Source of the DNA: an uncultured Gemmatimonas sp.
Lineage (GTDB): Bacteria > Gemmatimonadota > Gemmatimonadetes > Longimicrobiales > Gaopeijiaceae
Assembly: GCA_964490285.1 (NCBI GenBank)
Contig: CAZBCN010000006.1
Span: 13,720-77,719, forward strand
Reading direction: 5' to 3'
DNA length: 64,000 nucleotides
A model generated the notes under the pieces. It ran no database searches. It saw only the letters and a program-made list of their open reading frames with translations, and was not told the origin of the DNA. The translations under genes were made by a program, and so were the position numbers. This document shows, in pieces, positions 10,521 to 49,068 of the stretch. How positions within the stretch are numbered: the first letter of the stretch is position 1; every line of letters starts with the position of its first letter.

Positions 10521-10979
10521 TCAGAACGACGAGCCCAGCGAGCCCGCGAGGAGCTCTTCACCGAGGTAACTCTCGACGATCTCTCGCACGACCTTTCCGA
10601 GCCCATCGAGGTCCGCGGGCTTCTGGTAGAACGCGACCGCTCCGAGTGCCATCGACCTGTCCTCGGCCTTGGGATCGGGCGAGGAGGTGAGCACGACGAC
10701 CGGGAGCTTGTCCGCGCCGCGTTTCTCCTGGATCCACCTGAGGACCTCGAATCCGTCGATCTCGGGCATGATCAGGTCGAGGATGATCAGCGACGGCATG
10801 GGATGCGAGCGACGGTCCTGGAAAGGAGGCGTCCCGGCGAGGTAGGCGATCCCCTCGCGACCGTCCCCGGCGACTCGAACGTCCAGCCCGGGAAGCGCTC
10901 GGCGGGCAGCCACCCGAACGAGGATCGCGTGCTCACGCGCGTCCTCGACGACCAACAAGGTTGGATCTGGCATCAGCAC
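10521..10979 (-). CDS. stand-alone response regulator receiver (CheY-like)
   Basis: LLVVEDA, IILDLIMPEIDG (phospho-Asp), VVVLTSS and FYQKP motifs. No output domain. Confidence 0.8.
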   Translation of the reverse strand: MLMPDPTLLVVEDAREHAILVRVAARRALPGLDVRVAGDGREGIAYLAGTPPFQDRRSHPMPSLIILDLIMPEIDGFEVLRWIQEKRGADKLPVVVLTSSPDPKAEDRSMALGAVAFYQKPADLDGLGKVVREIVESYLGEELLAGSLGSSF

Positions 10980-11174
10980 GGATGGTACCCCCGCCGGATG
11001 GACACGCTCATCGTGGGCTCCTGGGGGGTTCTCGTAAGATGAGGCGCGCCATCCCTGCGCTCAAGCATGACGTTGGAGCGAGAGCGCGGCCGGGAGCGGC
11101 CTCGCGGGGGACCTAGCGGGCGGCCGTACGACCTAGTTTATTGCGCGAGGGACCTCACTCCACGGAGGTGTAGC

Positions 11175-11714
11175 ATGGCCAAGAAGGCCGCGAAGAAGAA
11201 GCCGGCTAAGAATAGAGCTGCCAAGCCGAAGGCGAAGGCTCGGAAGAAGGCCAAGCCGACCGCGAAGAAGCGGGTTGCCGGCGTGAAGCGACGAGTGAAG
11301 GCAGCGGTGAAGCGCACAGCCGGAAAGGTGAAGTCGGCGGCGAAGAAGGCCGGCAAGAAGCTGGCGAAGCGGAAGAAGTCCGCTCCTCGCAAGGCGGCGC
11401 CCAAGAAGACCGCCGCGGCGAAGAAGCCGGCCGCGAAGCCCGCTCCGATGGTCCGCCGGGCGACGCCCGCGCCGGCTCCGGCGTCACCGCGACCTGCGCC
11501 AGCGCCGCCTCCTCCTCGGCCAGCCATGCCGGCTCCTGCTCCTCCGCGTCCGATGCCGGCGCCCGCGCCGCGGCCGCCGATGCCCGCCCCGGCCACGCCG
11601 CGACCGATGACGCCACCGACCCCACCGCGGGTCGCGCCGACTCCGTGGCCGAGGCCTACGCCTCCGTCCACTCCGCCCAGCGGCCCTGGGCCTGGCTCGA
11701 GAGACGACACCTAG
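11175..11714 (+). CDS. histone H1-like Lys/Ala-rich protein with a Pro-rich (PAPAP/RP) C-terminal half
   Basis: GGAGG lies 6 nt upstream of ATG 11175. N-terminal half is AKK/KKA repeats (MAKKAAKKKPAKNRAAKPKAKARKKAKPTAKK...). C-terminal half is PAPAPPRPMPAPAPRPPMPAPATPRPM. Confidence 0.6.
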   Translation: MAKKAAKKKPAKNRAAKPKAKARKKAKPTAKKRVAGVKRRVKAAVKRTAGKVKSAAKKAGKKLAKRKKSAPRKAAPKKTAAAKKPAAKPAPMVRRATPAPAPASPRPAPAPPPPRPAMPAPAPPRPMPAPAPRPPMPAPATPRPMTPPTPPRVAPTPWPRPTPPSTPPSGPGPGSRDDT

Positions 11715-11741
11715 CTGGGATCTTCGTGTATAGGACTGCGA

Positions 11742-11772
11742 CCGGCCCGACGACCCGAGGTCGTCGGGCCGG
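11742..11772 (+). terminator. 13-bp perfect hairpin after the H1-like gene (no U-tract)
   Basis: CCGGCCCGACGAC - CCGAG - GTCGTCGGGCCGG, read directly. Confidence 0.35.
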
Positions 11773-11810
11773 CTCGCATCCACACGGCCGCATTCCTTAG
11801 ATTCGATTCG

Positions 11811-13103
11811 ATGCTTCGTTGGATCCCCCCAGTCGTCGTGGCCGCCCTCGTCTGGGCCGCGGCCACGCCATCGCCCGGCTTGGCGCAGGTCGCCACGCGA
11901 TCGGAGGCGATCGGAGCGGGGCCAGCCGTCACGGATGACGACGGCATCGGGCGATACGTCTTCGCCGGGGTCGCGATCGACAGCTTCGCGACAGGATCGC
12001 CTTGGAAGACGCTCGCCAACGCGGTCAACGACCTCGAGGGAGTCCGGGAGGTCCTCCAGGAGCGCTACGGCTTCGAGTCCCCGGACGAATGGGTGCTCAT
12101 CAACGCGGCTGCGACGAAGGACGCCATCGAAGAGCTGCTCGACATGCTGGACGATCCGGCGACGGGTCTGCGTCCCGACGACGCGCTCGTGTTCTTCTAC
12201 GCCGGGCACGGGACTGAACGGGTCGACAGCATCGTGACCGGTGACGTCCAGCGGAGGGGCTACCTGGTGCCCCACGACGTGACGAAGTCTCTCTCCGAGG
12301 CGCGTCGGCAGTACATGGAGATCAGCGAGCTGGTGGAGGCCCTGAGCGTGCTCGGCGCCAATCACGTACTCCTGATCCTCGACTCATGCCAGAGCGGTCT
12401 CGCGCTCACCGCCGACGACGGCCTCAAGGAGGAAGCGCGGGACTTCGAGATGTCTCAGCTCATCGAGGACATGGCTCGCAATCCCAGCCGGCTCGTGGTG
12501 ACCTCCGCGCAGTCCAACCAACTCGCTGCCGACGGGGGACCCTTCGAGGGCCACTCCCTCTTCACCGGCTACCTCGTCGACGGTTTGTTGCGCGCGGCAG
12601 AGGGCGGAATTCCCGACACGCTCCAGACCGAGCGGGGCCGCCTGGTGACGAGTGAGCTCTTCGAGTACGTGCAGGAGCGAGTCGGTCGGGCCCCGGGATC
12701 GACCCAGACGCCGACCTTCGGGGCGTTCCTCGCGCGCGGCGACGCGCCACGAGGGCAGATGGTCTTCGAGTTCGCAGTGGATCCATTCGACGACGCGTAC
12801 ACCGAGGCGATGGAGTATTACCGCGACCGGTCGTACGAAGCCTTCGTCGAAGCCGCCGAGCTCGCGCTCGCGGAGGAGGACGAGGAGAACGGGCCGCGCG
12901 CGGAATATCTGCGATTCCGCATCGCGACCATCCCGAACTCGAGGAACGTAGCCGCCCAGGTGACCGCGCTTCGGCGTCTCAAGCGCTACGCCGACGAAGG
13001 AGTGACGATCCCCCTGGATGCGCTCAATCTCGACGAACTCCTGCTGATGGCAGAAGAGCTCTGCGCCAACCCCAAGCACGCCTGCCCGGCGGCGGGCGCG
13101 TGA
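11811..13103 (+). CDS. exported caspase-family (peptidase C14) protein with a helical C-terminal region
   Basis: Signal peptide ...ATPSPGLAQ. His motif FFYAGHGTE and Cys motif LLILDSCQSGLA. Confidence 0.85.
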   Translation: MLRWIPPVVVAALVWAAATPSPGLAQVATRSEAIGAGPAVTDDDGIGRYVFAGVAIDSFATGSPWKTLANAVNDLEGVREVLQERYGFESPDEWVLINAAATKDAIEELLDMLDDPATGLRPDDALVFFYAGHGTERVDSIVTGDVQRRGYLVPHDVTKSLSEARRQYMEISELVEALSVLGANHVLLILDSCQSGLALTADDGLKEEARDFEMSQLIEDMARNPSRLVVTSAQSNQLAADGGPFEGHSLFTGYLVDGLLRAAEGGIPDTLQTERGRLVTSELFEYVQERVGRAPGSTQTPTFGAFLARGDAPRGQMVFEFAVDPFDDAYTEAMEYYRDRSYEAFVEAAELALAEEDEENGPRAEYLRFRIATIPNSRNVAAQVTALRRLKRYADEGVTIPLDALNLDELLLMAEELCANPKHACPAAGA

Positions 13104-15196
13104 TTTCACTGTCGACCACGGTGAAGCACACGGCCTGGGCGTGGGTAGGTGTGTGCGTTCTCGCGGGGCCGGCGCTCGCGCAGGATCGATCGATCTTCAC
13201 GGCTCTGGATACGGGAGACCGTGTGGTCGACGTGCTGAGCGGGCCGGCACGGGGCACGCTCTCCGCGGAGGACCTCATCGCCACCGGCGGCCGCCGCGTG
13301 CAGGTCTGGCGGCTGGAAGCCAACGTCGGCGACCAACTCCAGGTCGACCTCCGCTCAGGCGACTTCGACGCCTACGTGTACGTCGTGGGACCGGGTCTGG
13401 GCGAGGGCCTCGCGGACGATGACGGGGGCGATGGTCTGAATGCGCGTGTCTGCGTCACCCTCGACGAGCCGGGCGAGTACCGGGTGGTGGCCTCCGCACT
13501 GTCGAGTGCGACCGGCGGATTCACGCTCAGCGTGAGGCAACGCCCGGGCGTGACCAACGGAACGTGCCCGGAGGACGCCGGGGCCGCGACTTCCGCGGAG
13601 GTCGACGACATCGCTGACCTACCGCTCGATGGCCGAACGCTCGACATCGGTGCTGAGGCCGAGGGTAGGTTGTCCACCGCCGACGCCACGATCCTCGGCT
13701 CCCCCGCGCAGGCGTGGGCGCTGGAAGGCGTGGCCGGTCGGAGCGTATCCGTAGACCTGCGCTCGAGCGATTTCGACGCGTATCTCATGGTGGATGGCCC
13801 CGGACTCGAGAGCTGGCTCAGCAACGACGACGGAGCCGGTCGGTGCGATTCGCGGATTACGCTCGATTTCCCGGAGACCGGCGTGTACCGGGTGGTCGCG
13901 TCGACCCTCAACGACGGCATGGGTGAATATCGGCTCATCGTATCGGAGGAGCCGGGCCCCGTGAATGAAGAGGCCTGCATCCCGCCCTCGACCACGACGA
14001 GCGGTGGCGAGGAGGCAGTCGCGACCGTGGGTGCTCTCGCCTGGGAAGAGACCCGCGAAGGCACGCTCACCGGGTCGGAAGGTGAGTACATGGGGCGCCG
14101 CATGCAGGCCTGGACCCTCGAGGCCCAAGCAGGCACCAGGGTAGTGGTCGAGGTACGCTCCTCCGACTTCGACAGTTATACGTCTTTGACCGGTCCCGGC
14201 TTCGAGAGGAATCCGCCGTTCAACGACGACGGTGGTGGCAACCTGAATTCGCGTCTCTGCGCGGAGCTTCCGCAAACCGGAACGTACCGGGTGTTCGCAG
14301 GCCCCTATTCCGGCGGCGAGGCCGGACAGATCTACTCGGTTCGCGCCTCGGTGGCGGACGCCACCAGCCTGTGCACCGAGTTCGAGATGGCGCCCGAGGC
14401 GATCGCCGCCGTGCTTCGCCGACTGCCCACCGCTGGACGGTCGATCGCTCTCGGGGGCGACGCCGAGGGCCGGCTGGATGCTGCGGTCGACTCGCGCCAC
14501 CCCGACACGAATCACCTGATCCAAGCGTGGAGCTTCGAGGGCGTAGCCGGACGCACCGTGTACGTGGACGTCGTGTCGGACGACTTCGATACCGTTCTCT
14601 ACGCGCTCGGCGCGGGCATCGAGGGCATCCTCTTCCTCGACGACGCCGACGCCGGCTGCAACACGCGCATGTCGATCACGCCCTCCGAGTCGGGTCCCAT
14701 CCTCCTCTTCCCCGGAGCGTACGCGGAGGACGGCTCGGGCGTATTCCGTGTCCGGGTCGCGAGCGAGCCCGGCCCGCTGGAGGACAACCAATGCGACTTC
14801 GGTGTGGCCGACGCCGCGGGCGTCGACGCCGGCCGGCTCGCGGGCCTCACGTCCGGCGAGGAACGTCCCGTCCAGCCGGTCACCTTGGCCGAGGGCACGC
14901 TCGGCTCGGACGATCAGCGGCTCGGCTCCGGGGAGCCGGCCCAGCCCTGGTCCCTTTCCGTGAGCGCCGGTGAGGAGCTCGAGATCACGCTCATCTCGGA
15001 AGCGTTCGACCCCGTGCTCTACGTCGACGGGGCGTCGCTCCCCGAGGCACTCATGGACGACGACAGCGCCGGCGACCTCGACTCCAGGATCACCCTGACG
15101 GTGCCCGCCGACGGAGTGCTCAGGATCGTGGCGAGCGCGTTCGCCTCCGACGCCGCGGGCGACTACGAGATACGGATCGTCCGCCGTACCCCGTAG
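13100..15196 (+). CDS. exported protein made of five PPC-like (pre-peptidase C-terminal type) beta-sandwich repeats
   Basis: GTGA overlap with the upstream caspase stop. Signal peptide ...LAGPALAQ. Five modules share W-L-E---G--v-V-L-S-DFDaYl-v-GPG----nDDg-g--nSRi---lp-tG-YRVvas------G-Y-L-V. Confidence 0.75.
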   Translation: MISLSTTVKHTAWAWVGVCVLAGPALAQDRSIFTALDTGDRVVDVLSGPARGTLSAEDLIATGGRRVQVWRLEANVGDQLQVDLRSGDFDAYVYVVGPGLGEGLADDDGGDGLNARVCVTLDEPGEYRVVASALSSATGGFTLSVRQRPGVTNGTCPEDAGAATSAEVDDIADLPLDGRTLDIGAEAEGRLSTADATILGSPAQAWALEGVAGRSVSVDLRSSDFDAYLMVDGPGLESWLSNDDGAGRCDSRITLDFPETGVYRVVASTLNDGMGEYRLIVSEEPGPVNEEACIPPSTTTSGGEEAVATVGALAWEETREGTLTGSEGEYMGRRMQAWTLEAQAGTRVVVEVRSSDFDSYTSLTGPGFERNPPFNDDGGGNLNSRLCAELPQTGTYRVFAGPYSGGEAGQIYSVRASVADATSLCTEFEMAPEAIAAVLRRLPTAGRSIALGGDAEGRLDAAVDSRHPDTNHLIQAWSFEGVAGRTVYVDVVSDDFDTVLYALGAGIEGILFLDDADAGCNTRMSITPSESGPILLFPGAYAEDGSGVFRVRVASEPGPLEDNQCDFGVADAAGVDAGRLAGLTSGEERPVQPVTLAEGTLGSDDQRLGSGEPAQPWSLSVSAGEELEITLISEAFDPVLYVDGASLPEALMDDDSAGDLDSRITLTVPADGVLRIVASAFASDAAGDYEIRIVRRTP
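13196..15193 (+). repeat. 5 tandem protein-level repeats of about 115-145 aa each (PPC-like modules)
   Basis: Repeat cores: LRSGDFDAYVYVVGPG, LRSSDFDAYLMVDGPG, VRSSDFDSYTSLTGPG, VVSDDFDTVLYALGAG, LISEAFDPVLYVDGAS. Confidence 0.7.
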
Positions 15197-15214
15197 CCGC
15201 CCCGCTCACGTCGA

Positions 15215-17005
15215 TCAACGCTGACGGAAGAAGTCCGCCACCGTCATGTTCTGGCGATCACCGCGGATCTGAGGCTCCTGCAGCTCCCTGTTCTCGCGCG
15301 AGTAGGTCGTCACGTCGGCGAAGACCTGCCGGTGCACCTGCGCCAGGGTAGTGTTCGGAGATGCCTCGGTGAGATGCTGCCCGAGGAAGTACGCGAAGAC
15401 GCTCGAGCCCCCGCCGAGCTCGGGCCCTCCGACCCATGACACCTGCATATCGGTGGAGGCACCCCACATGACGTGGCGCTGCGGCGTCTCCATCACCCGC
15501 GCGATCGCGCCGAAATCACCGAAGCCGAGCGAGAAATCGGTCAGGTTCGCCGCCTTGAGATCACTCGTGATGAAGTTGGTCGGCATGCGAACGTGCTCCG
15601 CGATCCCCGGAGCGCTCAGGTCGACCATCTTCGCGGTCGCTCCGCGCGTGACGGATCCCGAGAAACATGCGTCGACCGCAACCATCGAACGGCCCGCGTC
15701 GAGCGTCTCGATCAGGTAGCCGAGCTCCTCATCAAGGATCACCGAAGACTCGCGGTCGGCGCCATACACATAGATGGCCTGATCGCCCTCCTCGTTCTCC
15801 GGATCGAGCGAGCCCGTCACGCCGATGTTCTCGCCGATCTGGGTCCCGTGACCCGAGTAGAAGAAGAACGCCAGCCCGTTCGGGCCCGCCTGGCCCAGGT
15901 GCTGCGCGATGCCCTGCGCGATGTTCTCGCGCGTGGCGTCGGAGTCGGTGAGGGTCACGACGTTTCCGGGCTCGAAGCCGAAGTGGCTCACGAGCATATC
16001 CTGCATGATGCTGACGTCCTCGAGGACGAACGGGCCGAGGTCGGCATCCGTTCCAGGATAGTCTGCGATGCCCACCAGGAGCGCGTAGCGCCCGTTCGGG
16101 TCGCCGCCCGTGCGGAACCCCGCAAACGGGACGCGCTGTGTCGAGGTAGCGCTCAGCGTGTACGCTCCCGTCGCGCCGTCCGCGTACGAGGTGACAAATA
16201 CCGTATACGCTCCACCGGACGGGAGCGTCACCTCGACGCGGCTGTTCGTGCCCTCACTGTCGTCGTTCTCTGCGAGTACGTCGGTGCCCGCGAGGACGCC
16301 CAGGTACGTGTCGAAGTCTTCCGACGCCAAGGTCACGGTGACCTGGTCGCCCGCTCGTCCCTGGAGCGTCCAGGTGTGGTAGTGAGTCCCGTCGGCCACC
16401 GGATCGCTGGCCACGAGCTCACCGCCGGTCGCCCTCCCCGGCACGAGCACGCGCGACTCTTCACCGCCCGTGGGCAGCACGTCGACGGAGATGCCGTAGC
16501 GCCCCGTGGCGCCGCTACCATAGCTCGTCGCCATGGCCGCGTACGTTCCGGGTCCAACCGCGAGCGACAGTCCGGAGTTCGTCCCAACGAGGTCATCGTT
16601 ATAGGCGAGGATCCCGCTCGCCTGACCGGGGGGGCCGTCAGCCAGCGCGACGTACGTGTCGAACGCGTCCGAGCTCATCGCGATCATGACCTCGCTCGGT
16701 TGCGTGACCTCGAAGGTCCAGACGTCCAGGAACGCGCCATTCTCCATCTTGGCGTCGGTGGTCTCGAGGGCCCCGGCCGTCATCTGGCCGGGAGCGATGG
16801 CGGCAATGCCCTTCTGCGCCTCGCCGTTGACGAGCGTCGTGGTCGCCTGCGCCATCCGCACGGCGCTGCTCTCGCCCCCCTTCGCGGAAAGGCCGGCGAG
16901 CGACTTGGAGCCCGGCACCTTCTCGGCTTCGCAAGCAGCCAGCGTCATACATGTCAGCAGCGCGCCGACGCTCGCTACGCGCCGGCCACGATCGGTTGTC
17001 AGCAT
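15215..17005 (-). CDS. lipoprotein: two PPC-like repeats fused to a C-terminal caspase (C14) domain
   Basis: Lipobox LTCMTLAAC. Repeats MSSDAFDTYVALADG...AYNDD and ASEDFDTYLGVLAG...ENDDSEG. Caspase motifs FFFYSGHGTQ and MVAVDACFSGS. Its SD (AGGAGA) overlaps the TAG stop of the upstream gene. Confidence 0.85.
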   Translation of the reverse strand: MLTTDRGRRVASVGALLTCMTLAACEAEKVPGSKSLAGLSAKGGESSAVRMAQATTTLVNGEAQKGIAAIAPGQMTAGALETTDAKMENGAFLDVWTFEVTQPSEVMIAMSSDAFDTYVALADGPPGQASGILAYNDDLVGTNSGLSLAVGPGTYAAMATSYGSGATGRYGISVDVLPTGGEESRVLVPGRATGGELVASDPVADGTHYHTWTLQGRAGDQVTVTLASEDFDTYLGVLAGTDVLAENDDSEGTNSRVEVTLPSGGAYTVFVTSYADGATGAYTLSATSTQRVPFAGFRTGGDPNGRYALLVGIADYPGTDADLGPFVLEDVSIMQDMLVSHFGFEPGNVVTLTDSDATRENIAQGIAQHLGQAGPNGLAFFFYSGHGTQIGENIGVTGSLDPENEEGDQAIYVYGADRESSVILDEELGYLIETLDAGRSMVAVDACFSGSVTRGATAKMVDLSAPGIAEHVRMPTNFITSDLKAANLTDFSLGFGDFGAIARVMETPQRHVMWGASTDMQVSWVGGPELGGGSSVFAYFLGQHLTEASPNTTLAQVHRQVFADVTTYSRENRELQEPQIRGDRQNMTVADFFRQR

Positions 17006-17016
17006 TCTTCGATCTC

Positions 17017-19032
17017 CTAGTTGGGTTGGATGTTGATGATCACTTCACGGCTCACAGCCAGGTCGGGCTCCGAGCCGCCGGTCGAACGGGTGCGCTCCGA
17101 CTCGAACCACGGGCGCAGATCCTGCGGAGCCTCCGTGGCGAAGACCTTCAAGACCTCTTCGCCGACGTCCCCTTCCGAGAGCCGAAAGCAGCGGTCGATC
17201 TCGCGGCCGGCGTCCAGCTGCTCCCCCGCCTGACCCTGGCGGGGCCAGAGGACCTCGACCTGCCCACCCGGACGGAGGTCGACCAAGTAGACGAACGCTC
17301 GCCGTCGGCCCCGATTCGCGACCCGGAGCCAGTAGGTGTCGCCCGGGCTCAGCCGCCACTGACCCCCGCCGAGGTTCTCGGCTCGAGACGCGGCGCCCGC
17401 CCAATCCGCGGGCGAGCAGTACGCCTGGCCACCCGGAGGCTGCACGAGCTGTGGCCGGGGGGATAGCTCGACGACGATGCCGAGCTCCGCGCTTTCGAAC
17501 GTGAGGCGCCGCAGGTATCGGTTGCGCGCGTACTCCTCCACTCGGCCGATGACCTGCTGAGCCCCGGTGGCGAGCACACGGTCGTCGGCGATCACTCGCG
17601 CCTCGGGACGTCCACCCCGATCACCGATGACGACGTCGCCGCCTTCGTCGACGAGCTGCACCATGCCGGACCCCGCGAGGCGGTTCGACAGGCCGGCCCG
17701 GTCGGTCTCCCGGAGCGAGCCGTCGAGGCGAACACGGAGCACGAGGTCCCCATAGCTGCGCTGGGTCACGAACGCCCAGGCTCCGCGCACGTCCTCGGTG
17801 ATGGACCCCGTCATCGCCTCGGCGAAGGAGCGCGTTGCCGACGCCTGCGTCACCAGGAGCGCGGCCAGCTCGGCGCGTTCGCCGGGCGTCGCCGTGCCCA
17901 CGGGATGCACCGCCAGGCGCGTTCCCGGGTTGAGGCCGACCAGCGTGCCACCGGCCAAGACGACCCCTTCGGAAGTGACGGAGTCCACCACCACATACGG
18001 CATCTGCTGCGTGAGGCGATTCGAGAACAGGGAGACGTCTGCATCCCCCTCCATCTGAGGTGTCTGGTTGCTGACCTTCCCGAGCAGGCTGCGCGCGATC
18101 GTGGCGAAGAGGGCGCGGTTCGTCGTCCCGGGGCCTGCTTCTGGAAGCGCGCGGGCGATGGCGAAGCTGAGCGACCCGACCTTCGTGCGGCCATCGAGGT
18201 CGTAGGTCTCCTTCGCCATCTGGCGTGGGCTCGCGGCACTGAAGACCACGAAGGGCGCGAGATCGACCGCTCCGCGGGTCGCGGCCGGCCGCCCAACCTC
18301 GATCCCCGTCCCGCGGTCTTCCTCGGACGCTCCGCGCGCGGCAGGCGCCGTTCCCCCCACGAAGGCGGGAGGGCCGAGCGGCGCCTCCTCTCCGCGTGCA
18401 GGCAGCTCGTCGTCCACGCCCCTCGTCCCCGTTCCGGAGTAGCAGGCGTCCAGGAACACCGTCACGTTCCCGGTCCGTCCCGCGCGCGCACGGATCTGGA
18501 CGATGTACTCCCCCAGCTCGTCGTCACGGATGTGGAGCGAGCCGTCGTAACCCTCGTAGAACTCCGCAGGCGCGCCGTACGGGACGAGCACCTCGTCCAG
18601 CCCGTCGAACTCCTCGTCCTCCGCGGGATTGTCGTTCGTGATCCGGTGCCCGTGCCCGGAGTAGTGGATCACGACCACGTCGCCTCGGTCCGTGTCGCGC
18701 ACGAGCCGCTGGAGCGCCGAGCGAATGCCGTCCGCCGTGGCCTGCGAGTCGGGGAGCACGCGGATGTCTCGCGGAAGGAATCCCTGCCGCTCCAGCGCGC
18801 CCCGCACGAGGACCACGTCGTTCGCCGAGCTGAGGTCACGATACGCGAGAACCGCGCGCCCAGTCGCCGGGTTCACCGGCGGCGGGCCGTACTCCCCGAT
18901 CGCGATGATCAGGGCCCGTTTCGTGCCCTCTTGAGCCGAGGCCGCCCCCCCACCGAGCAGCATGGTCGCGCAGGCGATGGCCGTCAGGCAGACCGCCGCC
19001 GGCCGCGGGCCGCACCGCAACGGGGTCGACAT
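17017..19032 (-). CDS. exported caspase (C14) protein with a DUF4384-like C-terminal domain
   Basis: Start chosen at MSTPLRCGPRPAAVCLTAIACATMLLGGGAASAQ (ATG 19032). Caspase motifs VVIHYSGHGH and VFLDACYSGTG. C-terminus ...SPGDTYWLRVANRGRRRAFVYLVDLRPGGQVEVLWP... resembles DUF4384. Confidence 0.85.
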   Translation of the reverse strand: MSTPLRCGPRPAAVCLTAIACATMLLGGGAASAQEGTKRALIIAIGEYGPPPVNPATGRAVLAYRDLSSANDVVLVRGALERQGFLPRDIRVLPDSQATADGIRSALQRLVRDTDRGDVVVIHYSGHGHRITNDNPAEDEEFDGLDEVLVPYGAPAEFYEGYDGSLHIRDDELGEYIVQIRARAGRTGNVTVFLDACYSGTGTRGVDDELPARGEEAPLGPPAFVGGTAPAARGASEEDRGTGIEVGRPAATRGAVDLAPFVVFSAASPRQMAKETYDLDGRTKVGSLSFAIARALPEAGPGTTNRALFATIARSLLGKVSNQTPQMEGDADVSLFSNRLTQQMPYVVVDSVTSEGVVLAGGTLVGLNPGTRLAVHPVGTATPGERAELAALLVTQASATRSFAEAMTGSITEDVRGAWAFVTQRSYGDLVLRVRLDGSLRETDRAGLSNRLAGSGMVQLVDEGGDVVIGDRGGRPEARVIADDRVLATGAQQVIGRVEEYARNRYLRRLTFESAELGIVVELSPRPQLVQPPGGQAYCSPADWAGAASRAENLGGGQWRLSPGDTYWLRVANRGRRRAFVYLVDLRPGGQVEVLWPRQGQAGEQLDAGREIDRCFRLSEGDVGEEVLKVFATEAPQDLRPWFESERTRSTGGSEPDLAVSREVIINIQPN

Positions 19033-19224
19033 TCGGGTTTTGGGGGGCTTCAGAAGGGGCGGGACGAAATGAGTAGGGTTGGTGCGTCGCGATCGCAAGG
19101 CCGGCACCCGACGACTTCGGGTCGCGGGAATCGGCCGTGTGACACCGCCCACCCTGGCACGTTCCGCAGGTTCCACCCAGATTCGTTCCATAGTGGTCGT
19201 CTGCCCCAATGGAGCATCACACCC

Positions 19225-19800
19225 ATGAAGAAAGCGATCTGCCTCGCCGTGCTGGCGGGGGCGTTCGCGATGGGCGCGCCGGTCGACGCACGCGCTCAGG
19301 GTCTGCTCGCGGTAGGCGAGATGGCACCCGATTTCGAGCTGCCGGGCGCGACCCGGTACGGTGCGCTCGCCAACCCCGTGCGCCTGAGCGACTACCGCGG
19401 CGAAACGGTCGTCCTCGCGTTCTTCTTCCGCGTCAGGACCCCTGGCTGAACAGTTCAAATGACGGCGTACCGTGATCAGTACGCGAGCCTATTCAACGAC
19501 GGACAGAACGTGGTGGTGCTGGGCATCTCGAATGATTCGCAGCAAGAGCTCGGAGCCTGGCTGAAGGACGCGGACTTCCCCTTCGTCTTCGCGAGCGACG
19601 CGGCCAATAACGGCGCGACGTACACGCGATTCGGCGGGGGGCTCCGACCCAACAACATGGTCGACAGCCGTGCCGTGATCGTGGTCGGTCCCGACGGTCG
19701 GGTCGCCGCGACGATCCCGCAGTTCAACCAAGCCGACCCGATGGCGTACGAGCAGCTTGCCGAGATCGTGGACCGAGTGACCCCGGAGCCGGCCCAGTAG
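19225..19800 (+). CDS. exported Bcp/AhpC-TSA-type peroxiredoxin with an in-frame TGA (19447-19449) at the peroxidatic Cys position: candidate selenoprotein, or else a pseudogene
   Basis: ORF ending at 19449 (...VVLAFFFRVRTPG*) and ORF 19459..19800 are in the same frame. Joined, they read RTPG-[TGA]-TVQMTAYRD, matching the Bcp motif TPGCTVQ-C--RD. Signal peptide MKKAICLAVLAGAFAMGAPVDARAQ. Confidence 0.6.
19465..19484 (+). promoter_or_regulatory. candidate bacterial SECIS hairpin
   Basis: GCGUAC-CGUGAUCA-GUACGC: 6-bp stem, 8-nt loop containing GU. It starts 15 nt after the UGA, so the loop lies about 21 nt downstream. Confidence 0.4.
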
Positions 19801-19887: not shown

Positions 19888-20412
19888 TCAGCTCCCGAGG
19901 AGCCGCGCCGCCGCGCCGACGAGATCCTGTTCGGCGCCTACGCCCGTGTAGGCCACCCTGCCCTGGGCGTCGAGCATGACGACGATGGACGTGGTCGTGG
20001 CGTTGTATGCGCGAACGGCGGCACCCCGGTCATCCCAGAGGAACGTGTACCCCGGGTCGTGATCCTCCAGGTGGCGCTGTACCCTGCGCACCGTCTGCGC
20101 GACGCCGACCGCGACCGCCACGATGTTGACCCGTTCACCGTGGCGCGCCTGGATCTGGTCCATCTGGGGCTGGAGCCTCTCGCAGATCTCGCACCAGGTC
20201 GCCCAGAACTCGATGATCGCGGGCTTGCCCCTCGTGAAGTCGATCAAGTCGACTGCGTTGCCCTCGAGGTCTTCGAGCGCCGCGCTGGGCCCCATCGTGC
20301 CGATCGGCAGGGAGACCGATCCCTCGCCCGCCGCCTGCGCCCGCACGCCGAGGGGGAGCGCCAGCACCAGGGTCAACGCGATGCGGAGCGACGATTTCCC
20401 GAGCATGGTCAC
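19888..20412 (-). CDS. TlpA/ResA-like periplasmic thiol:disulfide oxidoreductase
   Basis: Signal peptide. IIEFWATWCEICERL is a CxxC motif in a thioredoxin fold. Confidence 0.85.
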   Translation of the reverse strand: MTMLGKSSLRIALTLVLALPLGVRAQAAGEGSVSLPIGTMGPSAALEDLEGNAVDLIDFTRGKPAIIEFWATWCEICERLQPQMDQIQARHGERVNIVAVAVGVAQTVRRVQRHLEDHDPGYTFLWDDRGAAVRAYNATTTSIVVMLDAQGRVAYTGVGAEQDLVGAAARLLGS

Positions 20413-20413
20413 C

Positions 20414-21145
20414 TCACAGGTTGTATCCGGCGGACACGAAGTAATACTCCGCCATGCCGAACATGATCAACGCGGCGATCCGCTTCACCCACACCATCCA
20501 GACACCCGACCGGGGCAGAAGCGCTAGGGTCCCGGAGAACAGGCCCACGGCCACGAGGAGCGCCGTCATTCCCAGCGAGAAGACGAACAGATAGACGAAG
20601 CCCATCAGGCCGGCCCCGGTGGCCGCGACCCAGGTGAGCACGACCGCGAAGGCCGGCGCGCCGCACGGCGCGGCGACCACGCCCGACATCGCCCCCATGA
20701 GGAACACGGCCCCGTAGGAGCCGCCCTCTGTCTGCGCCGCCCGCTGGAGCAGCTTCTGGGGCACGGGCACCGGGAGCACGTCGAGCATCACCAGCCCGAA
20801 CAGGAGCAAGAGATTCCCGATCGCGAGCCGCGCCCACGGACTCGCGCTCACGGTCCCGAAGAGCTGGCCGCTCATTCCCGCGATCGCGCCGAGAACCGCG
20901 TACAGCATGGCGAGCCCCACCGCGTAGGTGAGCGTCAGGCCGATGGTCCGAGCCTTCGACTGTTGCTCCCTCGCAGTCCCCGCGATCACCGCGCTCGTGA
21001 TGGGGATCATCGGATACACGCACGGTGTGAGGCTCGTGAGGAGGCCCGCGCCGAACATTGCACCCAATGCGAGCAATGGGCTCGAGGCCAGCGCCTCGGA
21101 CAGGCCGCCCGGCGGCTCGATCTGCAGCAGGGAGTAGAGGGTCAC
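20414..21145 (-). CDS. ccdA: cytochrome c biogenesis / thiol-reductant transfer membrane protein CcdA (DsbD core)
   Basis: LTSLTPCVYPMIPI and the second Cys motif VVAAPCGAPAF. Polytopic membrane protein. Confidence 0.9.
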   Translation of the reverse strand: MTLYSLLQIEPPGGLSEALASSPLLALGAMFGAGLLTSLTPCVYPMIPITSAVIAGTAREQQSKARTIGLTLTYAVGLAMLYAVLGAIAGMSGQLFGTVSASPWARLAIGNLLLLFGLVMLDVLPVPVPQKLLQRAAQTEGGSYGAVFLMGAMSGVVAAPCGAPAFAVVLTWVAATGAGLMGFVYLFVFSLGMTALLVAVGLFSGTLALLPRSGVWMVWVKRIAALIMFGMAEYYFVSAGYNL

Positions 21146-45235: not shown

Positions 45236-46135
45236 CTATCGATCTCGAGCCGGCGGCCCGAACAAGGCCTTGGCCCCATCCCCGGTGATCTGCGGGCTCT
45301 GACCCAGCTCCTCGTACTCGAGCCGCTCGGCGACGCGGCGCAGTACGTCCTCGTAGGTCGCGGACGGCGTAACCTCGCCGAGCGCCTCCGCCAGGTAGCG
45401 CGTGAACATCCCTCCGTGCTCGCCGCCGGGAGAGGCGGTGGCATCGAGCGGGCCCTCGAGCGCGGCCTGATTGGGCGCCGCCGCCGCGAGCTCGAGAATG
45501 CTCGTCGCCGCGTCGGCCATGGACTCGGGATCGTACCGCTGGCGAACCACCGCAGGCTCCCTACCGCCCTCGGAGGGGACCGCACGCTCGAGCGAGCGCG
45601 TCCGCATGTTCGCGGCCCGTGTGGCGGTGCCCGAGTGGCAGCTGTCCAAGATGACCACGACGTCCGTACGGATCGTCGACAGCCAGGCGCGAAACTCGTC
45701 GTCGCGGATGTCGTTCGCGCTCGACAGCGGCAGGACATCGACCGGAGCGAGCGTCTCGTCGAGGCCGTCCGGCTCGTCGCCGTCGAGGTCGTAGACCTGG
45801 GACCCGTGCCCCGCGAAGTAGAAGATCGCGAGGTCACCAGGGGCTGCGCGGCCGGCGAGCCAGACCGTGATCGCCTCACGGATCGCCTCCTTCGTCGCCT
45901 CGCGCCCCAACAGGGCCATCGAGTTCGCCGGGTCCAGTCCCCAACGCTCGACGAGCACGTCCCTCATGACGCGCGCGTCCCGCTCGGCGCCGAGCAGGTC
46001 GCCTCCCGGCTCGTCGTCGAACTCGATGTAGTCGTTGATGCCCACGAAGACGGCATACTTCGTCTGTGCGAGCGCCGGGGGCGCGACCGACGACGCAGCG
46101 AGCACGAGGAGGAGCGGCAGGGCGCGCGGGGACAT
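45236..46135 (-). CDS. exported caspase-family (C14) protein, single domain
   Basis: Signal peptide MSPRALPLLLVLAASSVAPPALAQ. Motifs IFYFAGHGSQ and VVILDSCHSGT. Confidence 0.85.
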   Translation of the reverse strand: MSPRALPLLLVLAASSVAPPALAQTKYAVFVGINDYIEFDDEPGGDLLGAERDARVMRDVLVERWGLDPANSMALLGREATKEAIREAITVWLAGRAAPGDLAIFYFAGHGSQVYDLDGDEPDGLDETLAPVDVLPLSSANDIRDDEFRAWLSTIRTDVVVILDSCHSGTATRAANMRTRSLERAVPSEGGREPAVVRQRYDPESMADAATSILELAAAAPNQAALEGPLDATASPGGEHGGMFTRYLAEALGEVTPSATYEDVLRRVAERLEYEELGQSPQITGDGAKALFGPPARDR

Positions 46136-46186
46136 GGAGCGTGCTACCCGCGATAGGCCTGATTGGCTCGATGCCACGTGTGTGGG

Positions 46187-47518: not shown

Positions 47519-48402
47519 CCCACCGCCAGCCCTAGGGCGAACAAAGTCCCGTAGACGGCGACCACCCGCGCGGTGGCGCCGAGCGCAGGGATCAGCGAGT
47601 GCGGTTCCGTCGCGGTCATGACGGCGCGCGCCGGCGCCCAGCAGAGCGGCGCCGCGAGCAGGGCGCCCAGTGCGGGATATGGCCAGCCCAACGTCGCGAC
47701 CCCGACCGGCGGCACGGCCATCGCGGTCGCCAGCAGGACCAGGTACTCGACCCTGGTGCCCGTCCGTCCGAGCCGGACGGCGAGCGTGCGCTTCCCTGCC
47801 GCCGCGTCCGTGTCGATGTCACGGAGGTTGTTCGCCACGAGGATCGCCGTGCTGAGAGCGCCGAGGCCGACGCCCGCCAGCACGGCGCCGGGCGGCCACG
47901 CGAGCGCCTGCACCCAATACGTGCCGCCGACGGCCACCAGGCCGAAGAAGACGAAGACGAACAGGTCTCCCAGCCCGTGGTACGCGAGCGGGTAGGGGCC
48001 GCCCGTGTAGAGGACGGCGCACGCGAGCGAAGCGAGGCCGATCCACACGATTGGCCAGCCACCGACGGCCACCAGATACACGCCCGGGAGGAAGGCCAGG
48101 AGGAGCACGGCGACCATGGCGCGCCGAACGGCGTCGGGTGCGATCAGACCCGCTTGGGTCACGCGCACGGGCCCGACGCGGTCGACGGTATCGCCGCCGC
48201 GCACGAAGTCGTAGTAGTCGTTCGCGAGGTTCGTGGCGACTTGGATCAGGATCGCCCCGACGAGGGCCGCGACTGCAGGCAACACGGCGAGCCGACCGTC
48301 ATGGCTCGCCAACCCGGTGCCCACCAGGACCGGCGCGACCGCGGCGGTGAGGGTCTTCGGCCGCGCCGCCAGGATCCAGGCTTGGACGGTGCCTATCGCC
48401 AC
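47515..48402 (-). CDS. menA: 1,4-dihydroxy-2-naphthoate polyprenyltransferase
   Basis: GTG 48402 (VAIGTVQAWILAARPKTL). UbiA motifs NLANDYYDFVRG and NNLRDIDTD. Confidence 0.85.
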   Translation of the reverse strand: MAIGTVQAWILAARPKTLTAAVAPVLVGTGLASHDGRLAVLPAVAALVGAILIQVATNLANDYYDFVRGGDTVDRVGPVRVTQAGLIAPDAVRRAMVAVLLLAFLPGVYLVAVGGWPIVWIGLASLACAVLYTGGPYPLAYHGLGDLFVFVFFGLVAVGGTYWVQALAWPPGAVLAGVGLGALSTAILVANNLRDIDTDAAAGKRTLAVRLGRTGTRVEYLVLLATAMAVPPVGVATLGWPYPALGALLAAPLCWAPARAVMTATEPHSLIPALGATARVVAVYGTLFALGLAVG

Positions 48403-49058
48403 TCTTGGACGATGCGCGTCGTCACGATCGAATCCAGCTGTGGGTAGCGCCGACGCAGGTACTCGTTCCCGAGCTGGGCGATCGAGTCCTGCTGCGGCGG
48501 GTCGTCCGTATAGCCCGGATAGAACCCGTCGATCACGTCCAGGCCGCGAACGACCCGCCCGATCGGCGGATAACCCACGACGCCGCCCGCGGGGATCTCG
48601 TCCAGCCTCTCGTTGTCCACGAGGTTGACGAAGAGCGTGTACGAGCGGGTCTCCGGCCCCGCCCGCGCGTAGCTCACCATGCCTCGGACGTTGCTCTCCA
48701 CGACGGGCTCGTCGGCGATCGGACGCTCCTCCCAGATCGAGTCGAGCACGGGGTCCCCTGAGAAGCCCCACTGGGCGACGAACCCGCTCACGACCCGGTA
48801 GAAGCGGGCCCCCGCGTAGAAGTCGTTGCTCAGCAAGTGGTACATCCGATCCACGCCGAGCGGAGACCAGGAGCGATGCAGGGCGACGTCGAACGTGCCC
48901 TCGCTCGTGACGACCTCCGCCACGAACGAGTCCGGAGCGGCGACGGCGAGTGCCTCGGGGGTCGGCTGCCAGAGCGCGGCGTTCGGCCCACATGCCGCGA
49001 CCGGCAGCGCCGCGACGCTCACGGTCACGAGCGCCCACGAGCGGAGGAGGGGCCTCAT
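48393..49058 (-). CDS. exported cyclophilin-type peptidyl-prolyl isomerase
   Basis: Signal peptide/lipobox MRPLLRSWALVTVSVAALPVAAC. Cyclophilin motifs FYRVVSGFVAQWG and MVSYARAG. Confidence 0.85.
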   Translation of the reverse strand: MRPLLRSWALVTVSVAALPVAACGPNAALWQPTPEALAVAAPDSFVAEVVTSEGTFDVALHRSWSPLGVDRMYHLLSNDFYAGARFYRVVSGFVAQWGFSGDPVLDSIWEERPIADEPVVESNVRGMVSYARAGPETRSYTLFVNLVDNERLDEIPAGGVVGYPPIGRVVRGLDVIDGFYPGYTDDPPQQDSIAQLGNEYLRRRYPQLDSIVTTRIVQEWR

Positions 49059-49068
49059 GCGCCGCGCC

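What the first reader, a model, noticed from the sequence alone, without database searches (positions are those of the whole stretch)
11811..19032. Convergent cluster of three exported caspase-like (C14) proteases interleaved with PPC-like repeat arrays
About 7.2 kb is devoted to four exported proteins:
- caspase (11811-13103, +)
- five-repeat PPC-like protein (13100-15196, +)
- PPC x2-caspase lipoprotein (15215-17005, -)
- caspase-DUF4384 (17017-19032, -)

All three protease domains keep the His (xxGHG) and Cys (D-[SA]-C-x-SG) dyad motifs. All four proteins have a signal peptide or lipobox, so the chemistry is predicted to occur in the periplasm or on the cell surface, not in the cytoplasm where bacterial caspase-like proteins are usually discussed. 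The two arms are translationally coupled: a GTGA overlap in one, and an SD overlapping the upstream stop in the other. I know of no characterised bacterial system with this composition. An extracytoplasmic proteolytic cascade or surface-processing, lysis or predation module is an inference only.
Basis: partly seen in the sequence, partly recalled or inferred. Interest (0 to 1): 0.8.

Follow-up and report, generated by a model that had tools for sequence, protein, structure and literature searches.

The report
Exported triple metacaspase-like protease module
Some Gemmatimonadota carry a conserved four-gene block encoding three exported caspase-like cysteine proteases and a lysine-free five-domain binding protein; no such protease set acting outside the cytoplasm has been described, and its biological role is still unknown.

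Summary
There are four ORFs in two convergent, translationally coupled pairs: A (11811-13103, +) with B (13100-15196, +), and D (17017-19032, -) with C (15215-17005, -).

- **Domains:** A, C and D pass the Pfam Peptidase_C14 threshold and keep the His/Cys dyad and the two metacaspase S1 aspartates. B is five PPC beta-sandwiches and C carries two more.
- **DUF4384 in D:** it is sub-threshold in D itself, but 35 of 43 relatives sharing D's C-terminal module match it.
- **Export:** this is inferred. Signal peptides and C's lipobox Cys are kept in all orthologues, and there are conserved non-catalytic Cys pairs.
- **Synteny:** the same four genes in the same order occur in eight further Gemmatimonadota contigs (A identity down to 42%). 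Two of these have unrelated flanks, so the block moves as a unit.
- **New finding:** B is almost lysine-free (54 of 86 orthologues have none). In A and C an almost invariant Lys lies 12-13 residues after the catalytic Cys.

Best reading: a periplasmic or surface protease module, probably Lys-directed, with PPC arrays as substrate-binding partners in trans (A with B) and in cis (C). The biological role is not settled; protein foraging is favoured over a processing or lysis cascade. It is a new variant of a known kind.

The parts
11742..11772 (.). Perfect 14-bp GC-rich inverted repeat with 3 nt between the arms. It lies between the upstream Lys-rich gene and gene A. It looks like a terminator hairpin but has no T-run, and it probably separates A-B from upstream transcription.
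   Evidence: the repeat finder; sequence read. Its function as a terminator is inferred.
11811..13103 (+). Gene A, 430 aa: an exported metacaspase-like C14 protease. It has a signal peptide (about residues 1-25), His133, Cys193, S1 aspartates D74 and D191, an invariant Lys206 in a disordered loop after the catalytic Cys, and a C-terminal five-helix bundle (residues 325-430) with the invariant pair Cys418/Cys425.
   Evidence: Pfam; motifs; 18-sequence alignment invariants; AlphaFold model, pLDDT 70.5; Foldseek top hits GSU0716 (3bij), MALT1, AtMC9 and CgMCA1.
12426..12428 (+). Codon of Lys206 in A, the candidate (auto)processing site. It lies 13 residues after the catalytic Cys193.
   Evidence: Invariant in 18/18 sequences and K in 100% of 25. 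It lies in the segment 196-225 with pLDDT below 50. Cleavage here is inferred.
13100..15196 (+). Gene B, 698 aa: an exported array of five PPC/collagen-binding-domain-like beta-sandwiches. Repeats span about residues 31-160, 167-296, 299-428, 438-567 and 578-698. Repeats 1-4 each carry a conserved Cys pair. The mature protein has no lysine. The GTG start overlaps A's TGA stop.
   Evidence: Pfam PPC; repeat alignment; Cys pairs; AlphaFold pLDDT 89.7; Foldseek hit to the ColG tandem collagen-binding domain 5iku; lysine statistics.
15215..17005 (-). Gene C, 596 aa: a lipoprotein (lipobox LAAC, Cys25) with two PPC repeats (about residues 57-302) and a C14 domain (306-581; His386, Cys447). Its lysines sit almost only in the N-terminal tether (K29, K42, K65) and in the linker after the catalytic Cys (K459, K484).
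   Evidence: Pfam; lipobox Cys conserved 8/8; lysine profile over 85 orthologues; closest PDB sequences are metacaspases.
17017..19032 (-). Gene D, 671 aa: an exported C14 protease (domain 38-328; His127, Cys197) with a conserved acidic loop, E141-D143-G144-D146-E147, aligned to the GFDE segment of AtMC4. It also has an invariant Arg213-Gly214 in the linker. A ~337-aa C-terminal module follows, whose last part (about residues 574-635) is a divergent DUF4384. Cys539 and Cys615 form a conserved pair.
   Evidence: Pfam; invariants over 43 family members; 35/43 relatives match DUF4384; 463 representatives share the C-terminal module; Cys pair.
17005..17022 (-). The D-to-C junction: D's TAG stop overlaps a GGAG Shine-Dalgarno-like motif, and C's ATG follows 11 nt after the stop.
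   Evidence: Sequence read directly.

Best explanation
This is a self-contained module of exported proteases, confined so far to Gemmatimonadota. It has two convergent bicistronic operons.

**Parts**
- A, C and D are metacaspase/orthocaspase-type cysteine proteases. They belong to three old C14 subfamilies, only 23-31% identical to one another.
- All three keep the His-Cys dyad and the two S1 aspartates that give metacaspases their preference for basic P1 residues.
- Each operon pairs such a protease with PPC beta-sandwich repeats. The pairing is in trans for A and B, and in cis in the lipoprotein C, whose operon also encodes D.
- D adds a DUF4384-type C-terminal module.

**Proposed mechanism (inferred)**
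1. After Sec export the proteins fold in the periplasm or on the cell surface, with disulfide-stapled domains.
2. The proteases are made as zymogens. They are activated by cleavage in the flexible linker after the catalytic Cys, at the invariant Lys206 in A and the near-invariant Lys459 in C.
3. They then cleave target proteins after Lys, and perhaps after Arg.
4. The PPC arrays capture and present protein substrates.
5. B is nearly lysine-free, and the folded domains of C are too, so that they survive next to a Lys-directed protease.

**Most likely role:** degradation of extracytoplasmic proteins for peptide and amino-acid acquisition. Processing or turnover of envelope proteins is second.

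**Shown versus inferred**
- Shown: gene structure, domains, conserved residues, synteny, lysine depletion.
- Inferred: export, complex formation, Lys specificity, zymogen activation, biological role.
For: **Domains and catalytic residues**
- Pfam and motif results.
- The nearest solved sequences and folds are metacaspases and other caspase-fold proteins: AtMC4, Yca1, CgMCA1, AtMC9, GSU0716 and MALT1.
- The two S1 aspartates, equivalent to TbMCA2 D95 and D211 (defined in PMC6426788), are present in all three. A has D74/D191, C has D329/D445 and D has D72/D195.

**Export**
- Signal peptides are kept in every orthologue, and C's lipobox Cys is kept 8/8.
- Conserved non-catalytic Cys pairs: A 418/425, four pairs in B, D 539/615.

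**Functional linkage**
- The same four genes, in the same order and orientation, occur in L001, L003, L004, L005, L006, L008, L009 and L087 (L002 is a second copy of L001). A identity falls to 42%.
- L003 and L087 have unrelated flanks, so the block relocates as a unit.
- A 4-nt A/B overlap is called in five of the seven gene-called orthologous loci.
- 28 contig lengths are shared between the listed B hits and C hits.
- C is a natural fusion of B-type repeats with a C14 domain. The repeats of B and C cross-hit at E 1e-14 to 1e-18.

**PPC as a substrate binder**
- PPC domains of protease E495 bind protein substrates through D26, D28 and Y30 (PMC3327674).
- The matching D-F-D-x-Y motif is complete in four of the seven repeats here: B1-B3 and C2.
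- B-like arrays are also fused to trypsin-like and C14 domains in relatives.
- Foldseek finds the Ca-dependent ColG collagen-binding tandem.

**Lysine signal**
- B orthologues have 0.11% Lys, and 54 of 86 have none. This compares with 1.15-1.57% in co-encoded A and C, 1.66% in the window background, and 0.6-2.7% in most other exported-looking proteins. Arg is normal at 5.7%.
- In C, Lys is absent or rare in the PPC repeats and most of the caspase domain. It is conserved at K29, K42, K65, K459 and K484.
- A K206 and C K459 lie 13 and 12 residues after the catalytic Cys. A's lies in a loop with pLDDT below 50.
- B's first two inter-domain linkers are depleted in Lys and Arg.

**Degradative role**
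- An M19 dipeptidase gene is inserted inside the cluster in L005.
- A distant C relative sits among papain-like, astacin-fused and LRR-fused C14 genes.
- Gemmatimonadetes metacaspase genes are frequent and expressed in Baltic Sea surveys (PMC4933709).
Against: - No enzyme activity, localisation or interaction data exist.
- Export rests on sequence features only. No SignalP or LipoP run was possible, and nothing indicates transport beyond the periplasm.
- Lysine depletion is a weaker trend in related PPC-array proteins generally (0.1-1.5% Lys). One unrelated exported lipoprotein in the window also has no Lys. The signal is therefore suggestive and not proof of Lys specificity.
- Arg is abundant in all four proteins, which sits poorly with the usual Arg/Lys specificity of metacaspases unless Lys is strongly preferred.
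- D has no conserved linker Lys; it has an invariant Arg213-Gly214 instead.
- Three anciently diverged proteases kept in strict synteny look more like a coordinated machine than redundant digestive enzymes.
- Metacaspase-type enzymes are usually selective processing enzymes and not bulk degraders.
- No promoter, terminator or regulator could be assigned.
Confidence: 0.6

Rival explanations
1. A regulated extracytoplasmic zymogen cascade. One protease, for example D, activates the others by linker cleavage. The output is envelope or surface remodelling, programmed autolysis, fratricide or predation, and not nutrition.
For: - Three distinct C14 subfamilies are kept together in fixed order over deep divergence.
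- Conserved basic residues sit in the linkers after the catalytic Cys of all three: A K206, C K459 and D R213. This is as expected for cross-activation.
- C and D keep a conserved acidic loop at the position aligned to the GFDE/DGMDD segment of metacaspases. This suggests Ca2+-gated activation.
- Extracellular metacaspases acting in cell death or fratricide were proposed in PMC3501461.
Against: - No sensor, regulator, lysin, toxin or immunity gene travels with the block. The flanks differ in L003 and L087.
- An M19 dipeptidase insertion, PPC domains typical of degradative secreted proteases and relatives sitting beside astacin and papain genes all fit catabolism better.
Confidence: 0.2
2. The four genes are functionally independent exported proteins. 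They are adjacent only through shared ancestry within one lineage.
For: Most loci with the cluster also share flanking genes: a response regulator, a MacB-like permease, the TGA-containing peroxiredoxin and a DsbD-like gene. Much of the synteny could therefore be plain vertical inheritance.
Against: - The block is intact in two unrelated contexts, L003 and L087.
- The A/B start-stop overlap is conserved.
- PPC repeats occur both in trans and fused to a C14 domain.
- Lysine depletion is specific to B among the exported-looking proteins nearby, apart from one unrelated lipoprotein.
Confidence: 0.1
3. The C14 domains act as transpeptidases or sorting enzymes and not as hydrolases. They would attach or process surface proteins, as some other clan CD enzymes do. 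B avoids lysine so that it does not become an acyl acceptor.
For: - B is nearly free of Lys while Arg is normal. This would also fit avoidance of epsilon-amine acyl transfer.
- C is membrane-anchored by a lipobox.
- That clan CD enzymes such as PorU, GPI transamidase and legumain-type ligases carry out transpeptidation is from my own knowledge and was not tested here.
Against: - No conserved C-terminal sorting signal is evident in B or D, or in neighbouring genes.
- No characterised C14 member is known to me as a sortase.
- The conserved linker lysines fit zymogen processing more simply.
Confidence: 0.06
4. A cytoplasmic caspase-like anti-phage defence or abortive-infection system, of the EACC1, gasdermin or CHAT type.
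For: - There are generic hits to the PADLOC 'caspase' model (E 1e-12 to 1e-16, covering only the first ~130 of 453 profile positions).
- There are generic hits to NCBIfam caspase_w_EACC1.
Against: - The NCBIfam scores of 29-63 bits are far below the 140-bit cut-off.
- All four proteins carry export signals and conserved disulfide-type Cys pairs.
- No NTPase, gasdermin, CRISPR or sensor genes lie nearby.
- GC content matches that of the surrounding window.
Confidence: 0.02

Closest known systems
Metacaspases and bacterial orthocaspases (Peptidase C14B; AtMC4 6w8s, Yca1 4f6o, C. glabrata MCA1 7qp0, TbMCA2 4afp, MaOC1)
   Same: - Pfam C14 domain, His-Cys dyad and the two S1 aspartates that accommodate basic P1 residues.
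- C and D keep an acidic loop at the position aligned to the GFDE/DGMDD segment of metacaspases.
- A flexible linker with a conserved basic residue follows the catalytic Cys. From my own knowledge, AtMC4 self-cleaves at a linker Lys.
   Different: - These proteins are exported or lipid-anchored. The characterised members are intracellular.
- They are encoded as three divergent paralogues in one fixed module with PPC partners.
- A lacks the acidic loop.
- The partner proteins are lysine-depleted.
- No cell-death or NLR-type domains are present.
Secreted bacterial proteases with PPC or collagen-binding domains (Pseudoalteromonas E495, Grimontia hollisae collagenase, ColG s3a-s3b 5iku)
   Same: - PPC beta-sandwich domains carrying the D-x-D-x-Y protein-binding motif.
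- Tandem arrangement of the domains.
- Association with an exported protease, where the domain raises affinity for protein substrates (PMC3327674, PMC6168687).
   Different: - In the known cases PPC is C-terminal to a metallo- or serine protease and is often removed.
- Here it is N-terminal to a cysteine C14 domain in C, or forms a separate five-domain protein (B) translationally coupled to a C14 gene.
- Each of B's first four repeats is disulfide-stapled, and B is almost lysine-free.
Gingipains Kgp and Rgp of Porphyromonas gingivalis (clan CD, family C25). This comparison is from my own knowledge and was not tested here.
   Same: They work alike in outline: exported clan CD cysteine proteases with strict Lys or Arg P1 specificity, made as zymogens, acting with non-catalytic beta-sandwich adhesin domains at the cell surface for protein foraging.
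   Different: They belong to a different family (C25, not C14), use a different secretion route (the T9SS C-terminal domain, absent here) and have a different accessory domain type. The present module is not a member of this family.
C14 + DUF4384 proteins (a widespread uncharacterised architecture)
   Same: D shares its whole ~320-aa C-terminal module with 463 representative proteins, most of them about 650-730 aa. Of 43 sampled, 43 carry C14 and 35 match DUF4384.
   Different: D itself scores below the Pfam threshold for DUF4384. No member of this family has a known function, so the comparison adds no mechanism.
GSU0716 of Geobacter sulfurreducens (PDB 3bij), a structural-genomics caspase-like protein
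   Same: It is the best Foldseek match to the model of A (E 5e-8, TM 0.57 on the target), so the fold is a bacterial caspase fold.
   Different: It has no known function, only 20% identity, no PPC partner and no helical C-terminal domain.

Membership tests
Peptidase C14 (caspase/metacaspase, clan CD) | The sequence matches the family profile above the curated threshold. | tested here: met
   PF00656: A 58.6, C 57.6 and D 60.5 bits against a 21.4-bit cut-off.
Peptidase C14 (caspase/metacaspase, clan CD) | Catalytic His (in x-G-H-G) and Cys (in D-x-C-x-S-G) are present and conserved. | tested here: met
   A H133/C193, C H386/C447 and D H127/C197. They are invariant in the alignments and align to the metacaspase catalytic motifs.
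Peptidase C14 (caspase/metacaspase, clan CD) | Caspase/hemoglobinase alpha-beta fold. | tested here: met
   Tested for A only. The AlphaFold model (pLDDT 70.5) matches GSU0716, MALT1, AtMC9, CgMCA1 and caspases at E 5e-8 to 1e-4. C and D were not modelled.
Peptidase C14 (caspase/metacaspase, clan CD) | Cysteine-dependent peptidase activity. | not testable with these tools
   Needs an enzyme assay.
Metacaspase/orthocaspase type (basic P1 specificity) | Two acidic S1-pocket residues equivalent to TbMCA2 Asp95 and Asp211. | tested here: met
   The residues are defined in PMC6426788 section 17. A has D74 (invariant N-D) and D191. C has the Asp of L-E-D (D329) and D445. D has D72 and D195.
Metacaspase/orthocaspase type (basic P1 specificity) | Acidic Ca2+-binding loop between the catalytic His and Cys. 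| tested here: inconclusive
   D has the invariant E141-D143-G144-D146-E147, aligned to GFDE of AtMC4. C has the conserved LDPE...GD loop. A has RRGYLVP with no acidic residues. That this loop binds Ca2+ in metacaspases is from my own knowledge.
[quoted passage not shown] | Profile match above threshold, and a beta-sandwich fold. | tested here: met
   B 58.2 bits and C 30-32 bits against a 25.9-bit cut-off. Five repeats in B and two in C align with one another. The model of B has five beta-sandwiches at pLDDT 89.7. Foldseek finds the ColG collagen-binding tandem 5iku.
[quoted passage not shown] | Protein-binding residues D26, D28 and Y30 of the E495 PPC domains. | tested here: met
   The full D-F-D-x-Y motif is in B1-B3 and C2. 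It is partial in B4 (DFDTV), B5 (AFDPV) and C1 (AFDTY). The residues are defined in PMC3327674. The second Asp is invariant in all five B repeats over 55 orthologues.
DUF4384 (PF14326) | Profile match above the curated threshold. | tested here: inconclusive
   D scores 17.3 bits against a 27-bit cut-off, E 0.005. Only 2 of 8 cluster orthologues match at E<=1. However, 35 of 43 wider relatives sharing the same C-terminal module match at E<=0.01, best 8e-9.
Sec-exported protein / bacterial lipoprotein | An N-terminal signal peptide, or a lipobox [LVI][ASTVI][GAS]C for lipoproteins. | tested here: met
   Judged by inspection and hydropathy only, and conserved in seven orthologues of each protein. 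C's Cys25 is kept 8/8. No dedicated predictor (SignalP, LipoP) was available, and localisation itself is not testable here.
EACC1-associated caspase / known anti-phage defence systems | A match to NF047832 above its cut-off, and defence-type partner genes nearby. | tested here: not met
   Scores of 63, 41 and 29 bits against a 140-bit cut-off. PADLOC gives only a generic partial caspase match. No NTPase, EACC1 or gasdermin-type neighbours were found.

The most novel reading that the evidence does not exclude
The module is a true extracytoplasmic caspase-type zymogen cascade. Three Lys-directed, metacaspase-like proteases would activate one another at conserved linker residues, on a lysine-free PPC scaffold that both recruits targets and resists its own proteases. 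The cascade would control an all-or-none envelope event such as surface remodelling, autolysis or killing of neighbouring cells. This would be a bacterial counterpart of caspase cascades operating outside the cytoplasm.
Probability: 0.15. Interest if true: 0.8.

Novelty: new variant of a known kind. Interest (0 to 1): 0.55.

Why it matters
- **Context:** bacterial caspase homologues are numerous, but almost none has a known function. Discussion has centred on cytoplasmic cell death and defence.
- **What is new:** this is a conserved operon-level module of exported C14 proteases with dedicated binding partners. Its sequence signature yields concrete predictions that are cheap to test:
  - the proteases should prefer Lys at P1;
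  - processing should occur at A Lys206 and C Lys459;
  - A and B should form a complex.
- **If confirmed:**
  - it would give C14 peptidases a defined extracytoplasmic role;
  - it would explain why Gemmatimonadota metacaspase genes are abundant and expressed in aquatic surveys (PMC4933709);
  - it might provide a new Lys-specific endopeptidase.
- **Wider use:** depletion of one residue in a partner protein, as seen in B, may also serve as a general clue to the specificity of co-encoded proteases.

Tried and rejected
- **Promoters and terminators:** the consensus scan over 10900-19500 found no promoter and only chance-level terminators. There is no inverted repeat in the 18-nt B/C gap.
- **RNA genes:** Rfam at gathering thresholds and ARAGORN found nothing in the window.
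- **PDB sequence searches:** no hit for B or for a profile of D's C-terminal module.
- **Structure of D's C-terminal module:** That module remains unmodelled.
- **Exact look-ups:** the window's own A protein, its NCBI version P0001 and the C homologue P0147 were not on record.
- **Taxonomy of D relatives:** The listing of cluster members gave none.
- **Defence-system reading:** rejected.
- **B as a polyprotein cut at its linkers:** rejected. B has no Lys, and its first two linkers are depleted in Lys and Arg.
- **Lysine depletion as a general property of exported proteins here:** rejected. Most other exported-looking proteins have 0.6-2.7% Lys. Related PPC-array proteins are also Lys-poor, at 0.1-1.5%.
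- **Response regulator and Lys-rich protein upstream as parts of the module:** rejected, because they are absent from L003 and L087.
- **A-like gene in Sorangium (L010):** it is an 854-aa protein with no evident signal peptide and no B, C or D neighbours. The module does not extend there.

Full report
**1. The observation**

The four ORFs are present as described:
- A: 11811-13103 (+), 430 aa.
- B: 13100-15196 (+), 698 aa.
- C: 15215-17005 (-), 596 aa.
- D: 17017-19032 (-), 671 aa.

GC content across the region (0.67-0.69) matches that of the rest of the window.

Pfam assigns Peptidase_C14 to A, C and D at E 9e-16, 2e-15 and 2.5e-16, each about 58-60 bits against a 21.4-bit threshold. It assigns PPC to B (E 1.5e-15) and to C (E 1e-6).

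- A: G-H133-G and D191-S-C193-Q-S-G.
- C: G-H386-G and D445-A-C447-F-S-G.
- D: G-H127-G and D195-A-C197-Y-S-G.

The junctions read as stated:
- gcGTGAtt at the A/B junction.
- aacTAGGAGatcgaagaATG at the D/C junction.
- 18 nt between the convergent stops of B and C.

A perfect 14-bp hairpin at 11742-11772 separates A from the upstream gene.

B consists of five ~130-aa repeats that are 25-44% identical to one another, and C has two of the same kind. An AlphaFold model of B built on 55 homologues (pLDDT 89.7) shows five beta-sandwiches joined by short low-confidence linkers. Foldseek finds the Ca-bound ColG tandem collagen-binding domain among its top hits.

One correction is needed. DUF4384 in D is sub-threshold, at 17.3 bits against 27.

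**2. Export**

No signal-peptide predictor was available, so export is an inference. It rests on three kinds of evidence:
- All four N-termini have a basic n-region, a hydrophobic core and an Ala-x-Ala-like site (GLA|Q, ALA|Q, ASA|Q). C has the lipobox L-A-A-C.
- These features are kept in all seven orthologues examined per protein, and C's Cys25 is invariant.
- Conserved non-catalytic cysteines come in pairs, as expected for disulfides in an oxidising compartment. These are A C418/C425, B C118/C156, C249/C293, C387/C425 and C520/C565, and D C539/C615.

**3. Synteny**

A has about 25 orthologues at 42-100% identity. Gene neighbourhoods and tblastn show the same four genes, in the same order and orientation, in these loci:
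- L001 (with its duplicate L002), a Gemmatimonadales MAG.
- L003, L004, L005 and L006.
- L008, Gemmatimonadales.
- L009, Longimicrobiales.
- L087.

In most of them the flanks are also conserved. In L003 (an MFS transporter on one side, an Mnh antiporter on the other) and in L087 (TPR, GSDH, Peptidase_S9, a methyltransferase and CBM9) the flanks are unrelated. The block therefore moves as a unit.

In L005 an M19 dipeptidase gene sits between B and C. A 4-nt A/B overlap is called in L001, L005, L006 and L087, and in L001's duplicate L002.

The C family (437 hits) and the B family (717 hits, more than 80 of them full-length five-repeat proteins) are larger. Where named, almost all are Gemmatimonadota. 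Twenty-eight contig lengths recur in both lists, an indirect sign of co-occurrence down to about 38% identity.

Outside the phylum I found only isolated relatives. One is an A-like 854-aa protein in Sorangium without partners. Another is a C-like gene next to a D-like gene in a Rhodothermales MAG.

**4. What the proteases are**

Their closest solved sequences are metacaspases: AtMC4, Yca1, C. glabrata MCA1, AtMC9 and TbMCA2. The model of A has a caspase fold plus a confident five-helix C-terminal bundle.

The two aspartates that give metacaspases basic P1 specificity are TbMCA2 D95 and D211, as summarised in PMC6426788. Both are present in all three proteins.

C and D keep an acidic loop at the position aligned to the GFDE/DGMDD segment of metacaspases, which I recall as the Ca2+-binding site. 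A does not have it.

The three caspase domains are only 23-31% identical to one another. They are old, distinct subfamilies and not recent duplicates.

D's 337-aa C-terminal module is shared with 463 representative proteins, most of them about 650-730 aa. Of 43 sampled, all carry C14 and 35 match DUF4384. D is therefore a divergent member of a widespread, uncharacterised C14+DUF4384 architecture.

**5. A new feature: lysine avoidance**

Mature B has no lysine but 45 arginines. The comparison across families and background is:

| Protein set | Lys content |
|---|---|
| B, 86 full-length orthologues | 0.11% (54 have none, 19 have one); Arg 5.7% |
| A and C, co-encoded | 1.57% and 1.15% |
| Likely genes in the window | 1.66% |
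| Most other exported-looking proteins in these loci | 0.6-2.7% |

At the background rate about 11 lysines would be expected in mature B.

In C (85 sequences), Lys is absent or rare (0-0.4%) in the PPC repeats and most of the caspase domain. It is concentrated at conserved positions. K29, K42 and K65 lie in the tether after the lipid anchor. K459 (96%) and K484 (71%) lie in the linker after the catalytic Cys.

In A, K206 is invariant and lies in a loop with pLDDT below 50. A's K206 is 13 residues after the catalytic Cys, and C's K459 is 12 residues after it.

B's first two inter-domain linkers are depleted in both Lys and Arg.

Two caveats apply. Related PPC-array proteins fused to trypsin-like or other domains are also Lys-poor, at 0.1-1.5%. 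One unrelated exported lipoprotein in the window also has no Lys.

**6. Mechanism**

The evidence best fits an exported proteolytic module. Metacaspase-type proteases would be activated by cleavage at a conserved linker Lys and would cut targets after Lys, perhaps also after Arg. PPC arrays would bind the protein substrates.

PPC domains of protease E495 bind proteins through D26, D28 and Y30 (PMC3327674). The matching D-F-D-x-Y motif is complete in four of the seven repeats here and partial in the other three.

C is a natural fusion of B-type repeats with a C14 domain. A and B are translationally coupled. Both points argue that A and B work as a complex. B's lack of Lys is what one would expect of a protein that must survive next to a Lys-directed protease.

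For the biological role I favour degradation of extracytoplasmic proteins for nutrition. The supporting observations are:
- the M19 dipeptidase insertion in L005;
- B-like arrays fused to trypsin-like domains;
- a distant C relative embedded among papain-like, astacin-fused and LRR-fused C14 genes.

A processing or lysis cascade is not excluded. All of section 6 is inference.

**7. Comparison with what is known**

Surveys have noted that about 15% of prokaryotic metacaspases carry a predicted transmembrane helix, often an N-terminal one that may be a signal peptide. They also noted that some may act outside the cell (PMC3501461). Gemmatimonadetes metacaspase genes are frequent and expressed in the Baltic Sea (PMC4933709).

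I found no description of this module, or of any C14-PPC association, in the held library.

The defence-system reading fails on several counts:
- NF047832 scores are far below its cut-off.
- PADLOC gives only a generic caspase match.
- The proteins are exported.

Functionally the nearest analogue is the gingipain system: exported clan CD proteases with Lys or Arg specificity and adhesin domains. That is a different family and secretion route, and the comparison comes from my own knowledge.

**8. Verdict**

This is a new variant of a known kind: exported bacterial C14 proteases organised as a conserved four-gene module with a lysine-free PPC partner. Interest is moderate to high (0.55). The function is untested, but the sequence gives sharp, testable predictions.

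Noticed in passing
window 19225-19800 (+), in-frame TGA at 19447-19449: An exported AhpC/BCP-type peroxiredoxin gene is interrupted by an in-frame TGA exactly at the peroxidatic Cys position (FFFRVRTPG-TGA-TVQMTAYRDQY). The TGA and the protein sequence on both sides are conserved in six orthologous loci (75-92% identity read through the stop). A hairpin 17 nt downstream, GCGTAC-CGTGATCA-GTACGC, is identical at nucleotide level in all seven sequences. This is probably a selenocysteine peroxiredoxin that gene callers split into 73-74-aa and 113-114-aa ORFs. The hairpin's folding energy is not better than that of shuffled sequences, and Rfam gave no match.
   Followed up: partly
window 19888-20412 (-) and 20414-21145 (-), next to the peroxiredoxin gene and gene D: An exported TlpA-like thioredoxin and a DsbD/CcdA-type membrane electron transporter lie beside the TGA-containing peroxiredoxin, together forming a periplasmic reductant pathway. 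The peroxiredoxin gene is adjacent to gene D, on the opposite strand, in 7 of the 9 distinct loci with a complete cluster, counting the window; it is absent in L003 and L087. Exported cysteine proteases need a reduced catalytic thiol, so a functional link is conceivable, but it is speculation.
   Followed up: partly
window 45236-46177 (-): A fourth C14 gene encodes a stand-alone 313-aa metacaspase-like protein. It has a signal peptide, FAGHG, DSCHSG and an acidic DGDEPDGLDE loop. The genome therefore carries further exported C14 proteases outside the cluster.
   Followed up: partly
window 11067-11714 (+): Directly upstream of A lies a gene for a protein with a very Lys/Ala-rich, histone H1-like N-terminal half and a Pro-rich C-terminal half. 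It has no signal peptide. It is present in L001 and L006 but not in L003 or L087, so it is not part of the module. It is notable as an extremely Lys-rich protein next to a Lys-avoiding cluster.
   Followed up: no
L088:1-12647: A more distant C homologue (41% identity) sits in a different island of exported-protease-type genes: C14 fused to LRRs, an LRR protein, C14+DUF4384, a papain-like C1/C39 peptidase, the C-like gene, a C14-astacin fusion, and then FGE-sulfatase-domain genes.
   Followed up: no
L005:5041-6093: In this orthologous locus a Peptidase_M19 (membrane dipeptidase) gene is inserted between B and C. The cluster is otherwise unchanged.
   Followed up: no
L007:9878-10930: In a Gemmatimonadetes MAG (isolate K_Offshore_80m_m2_041) only a shortened A homologue is found (60% identity, residues 18-294). 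No B, C or D scored at least 70 bits in the 10 kb downstream. This may be a decayed or lost cluster.
   Followed up: no
window 48393-49121 (-): A probable exported lipoprotein (…ALPVAACGPN…) has no lysine at all in 242 residues. It is the only other Lys-free protein among the window's likely genes.
   Followed up: no
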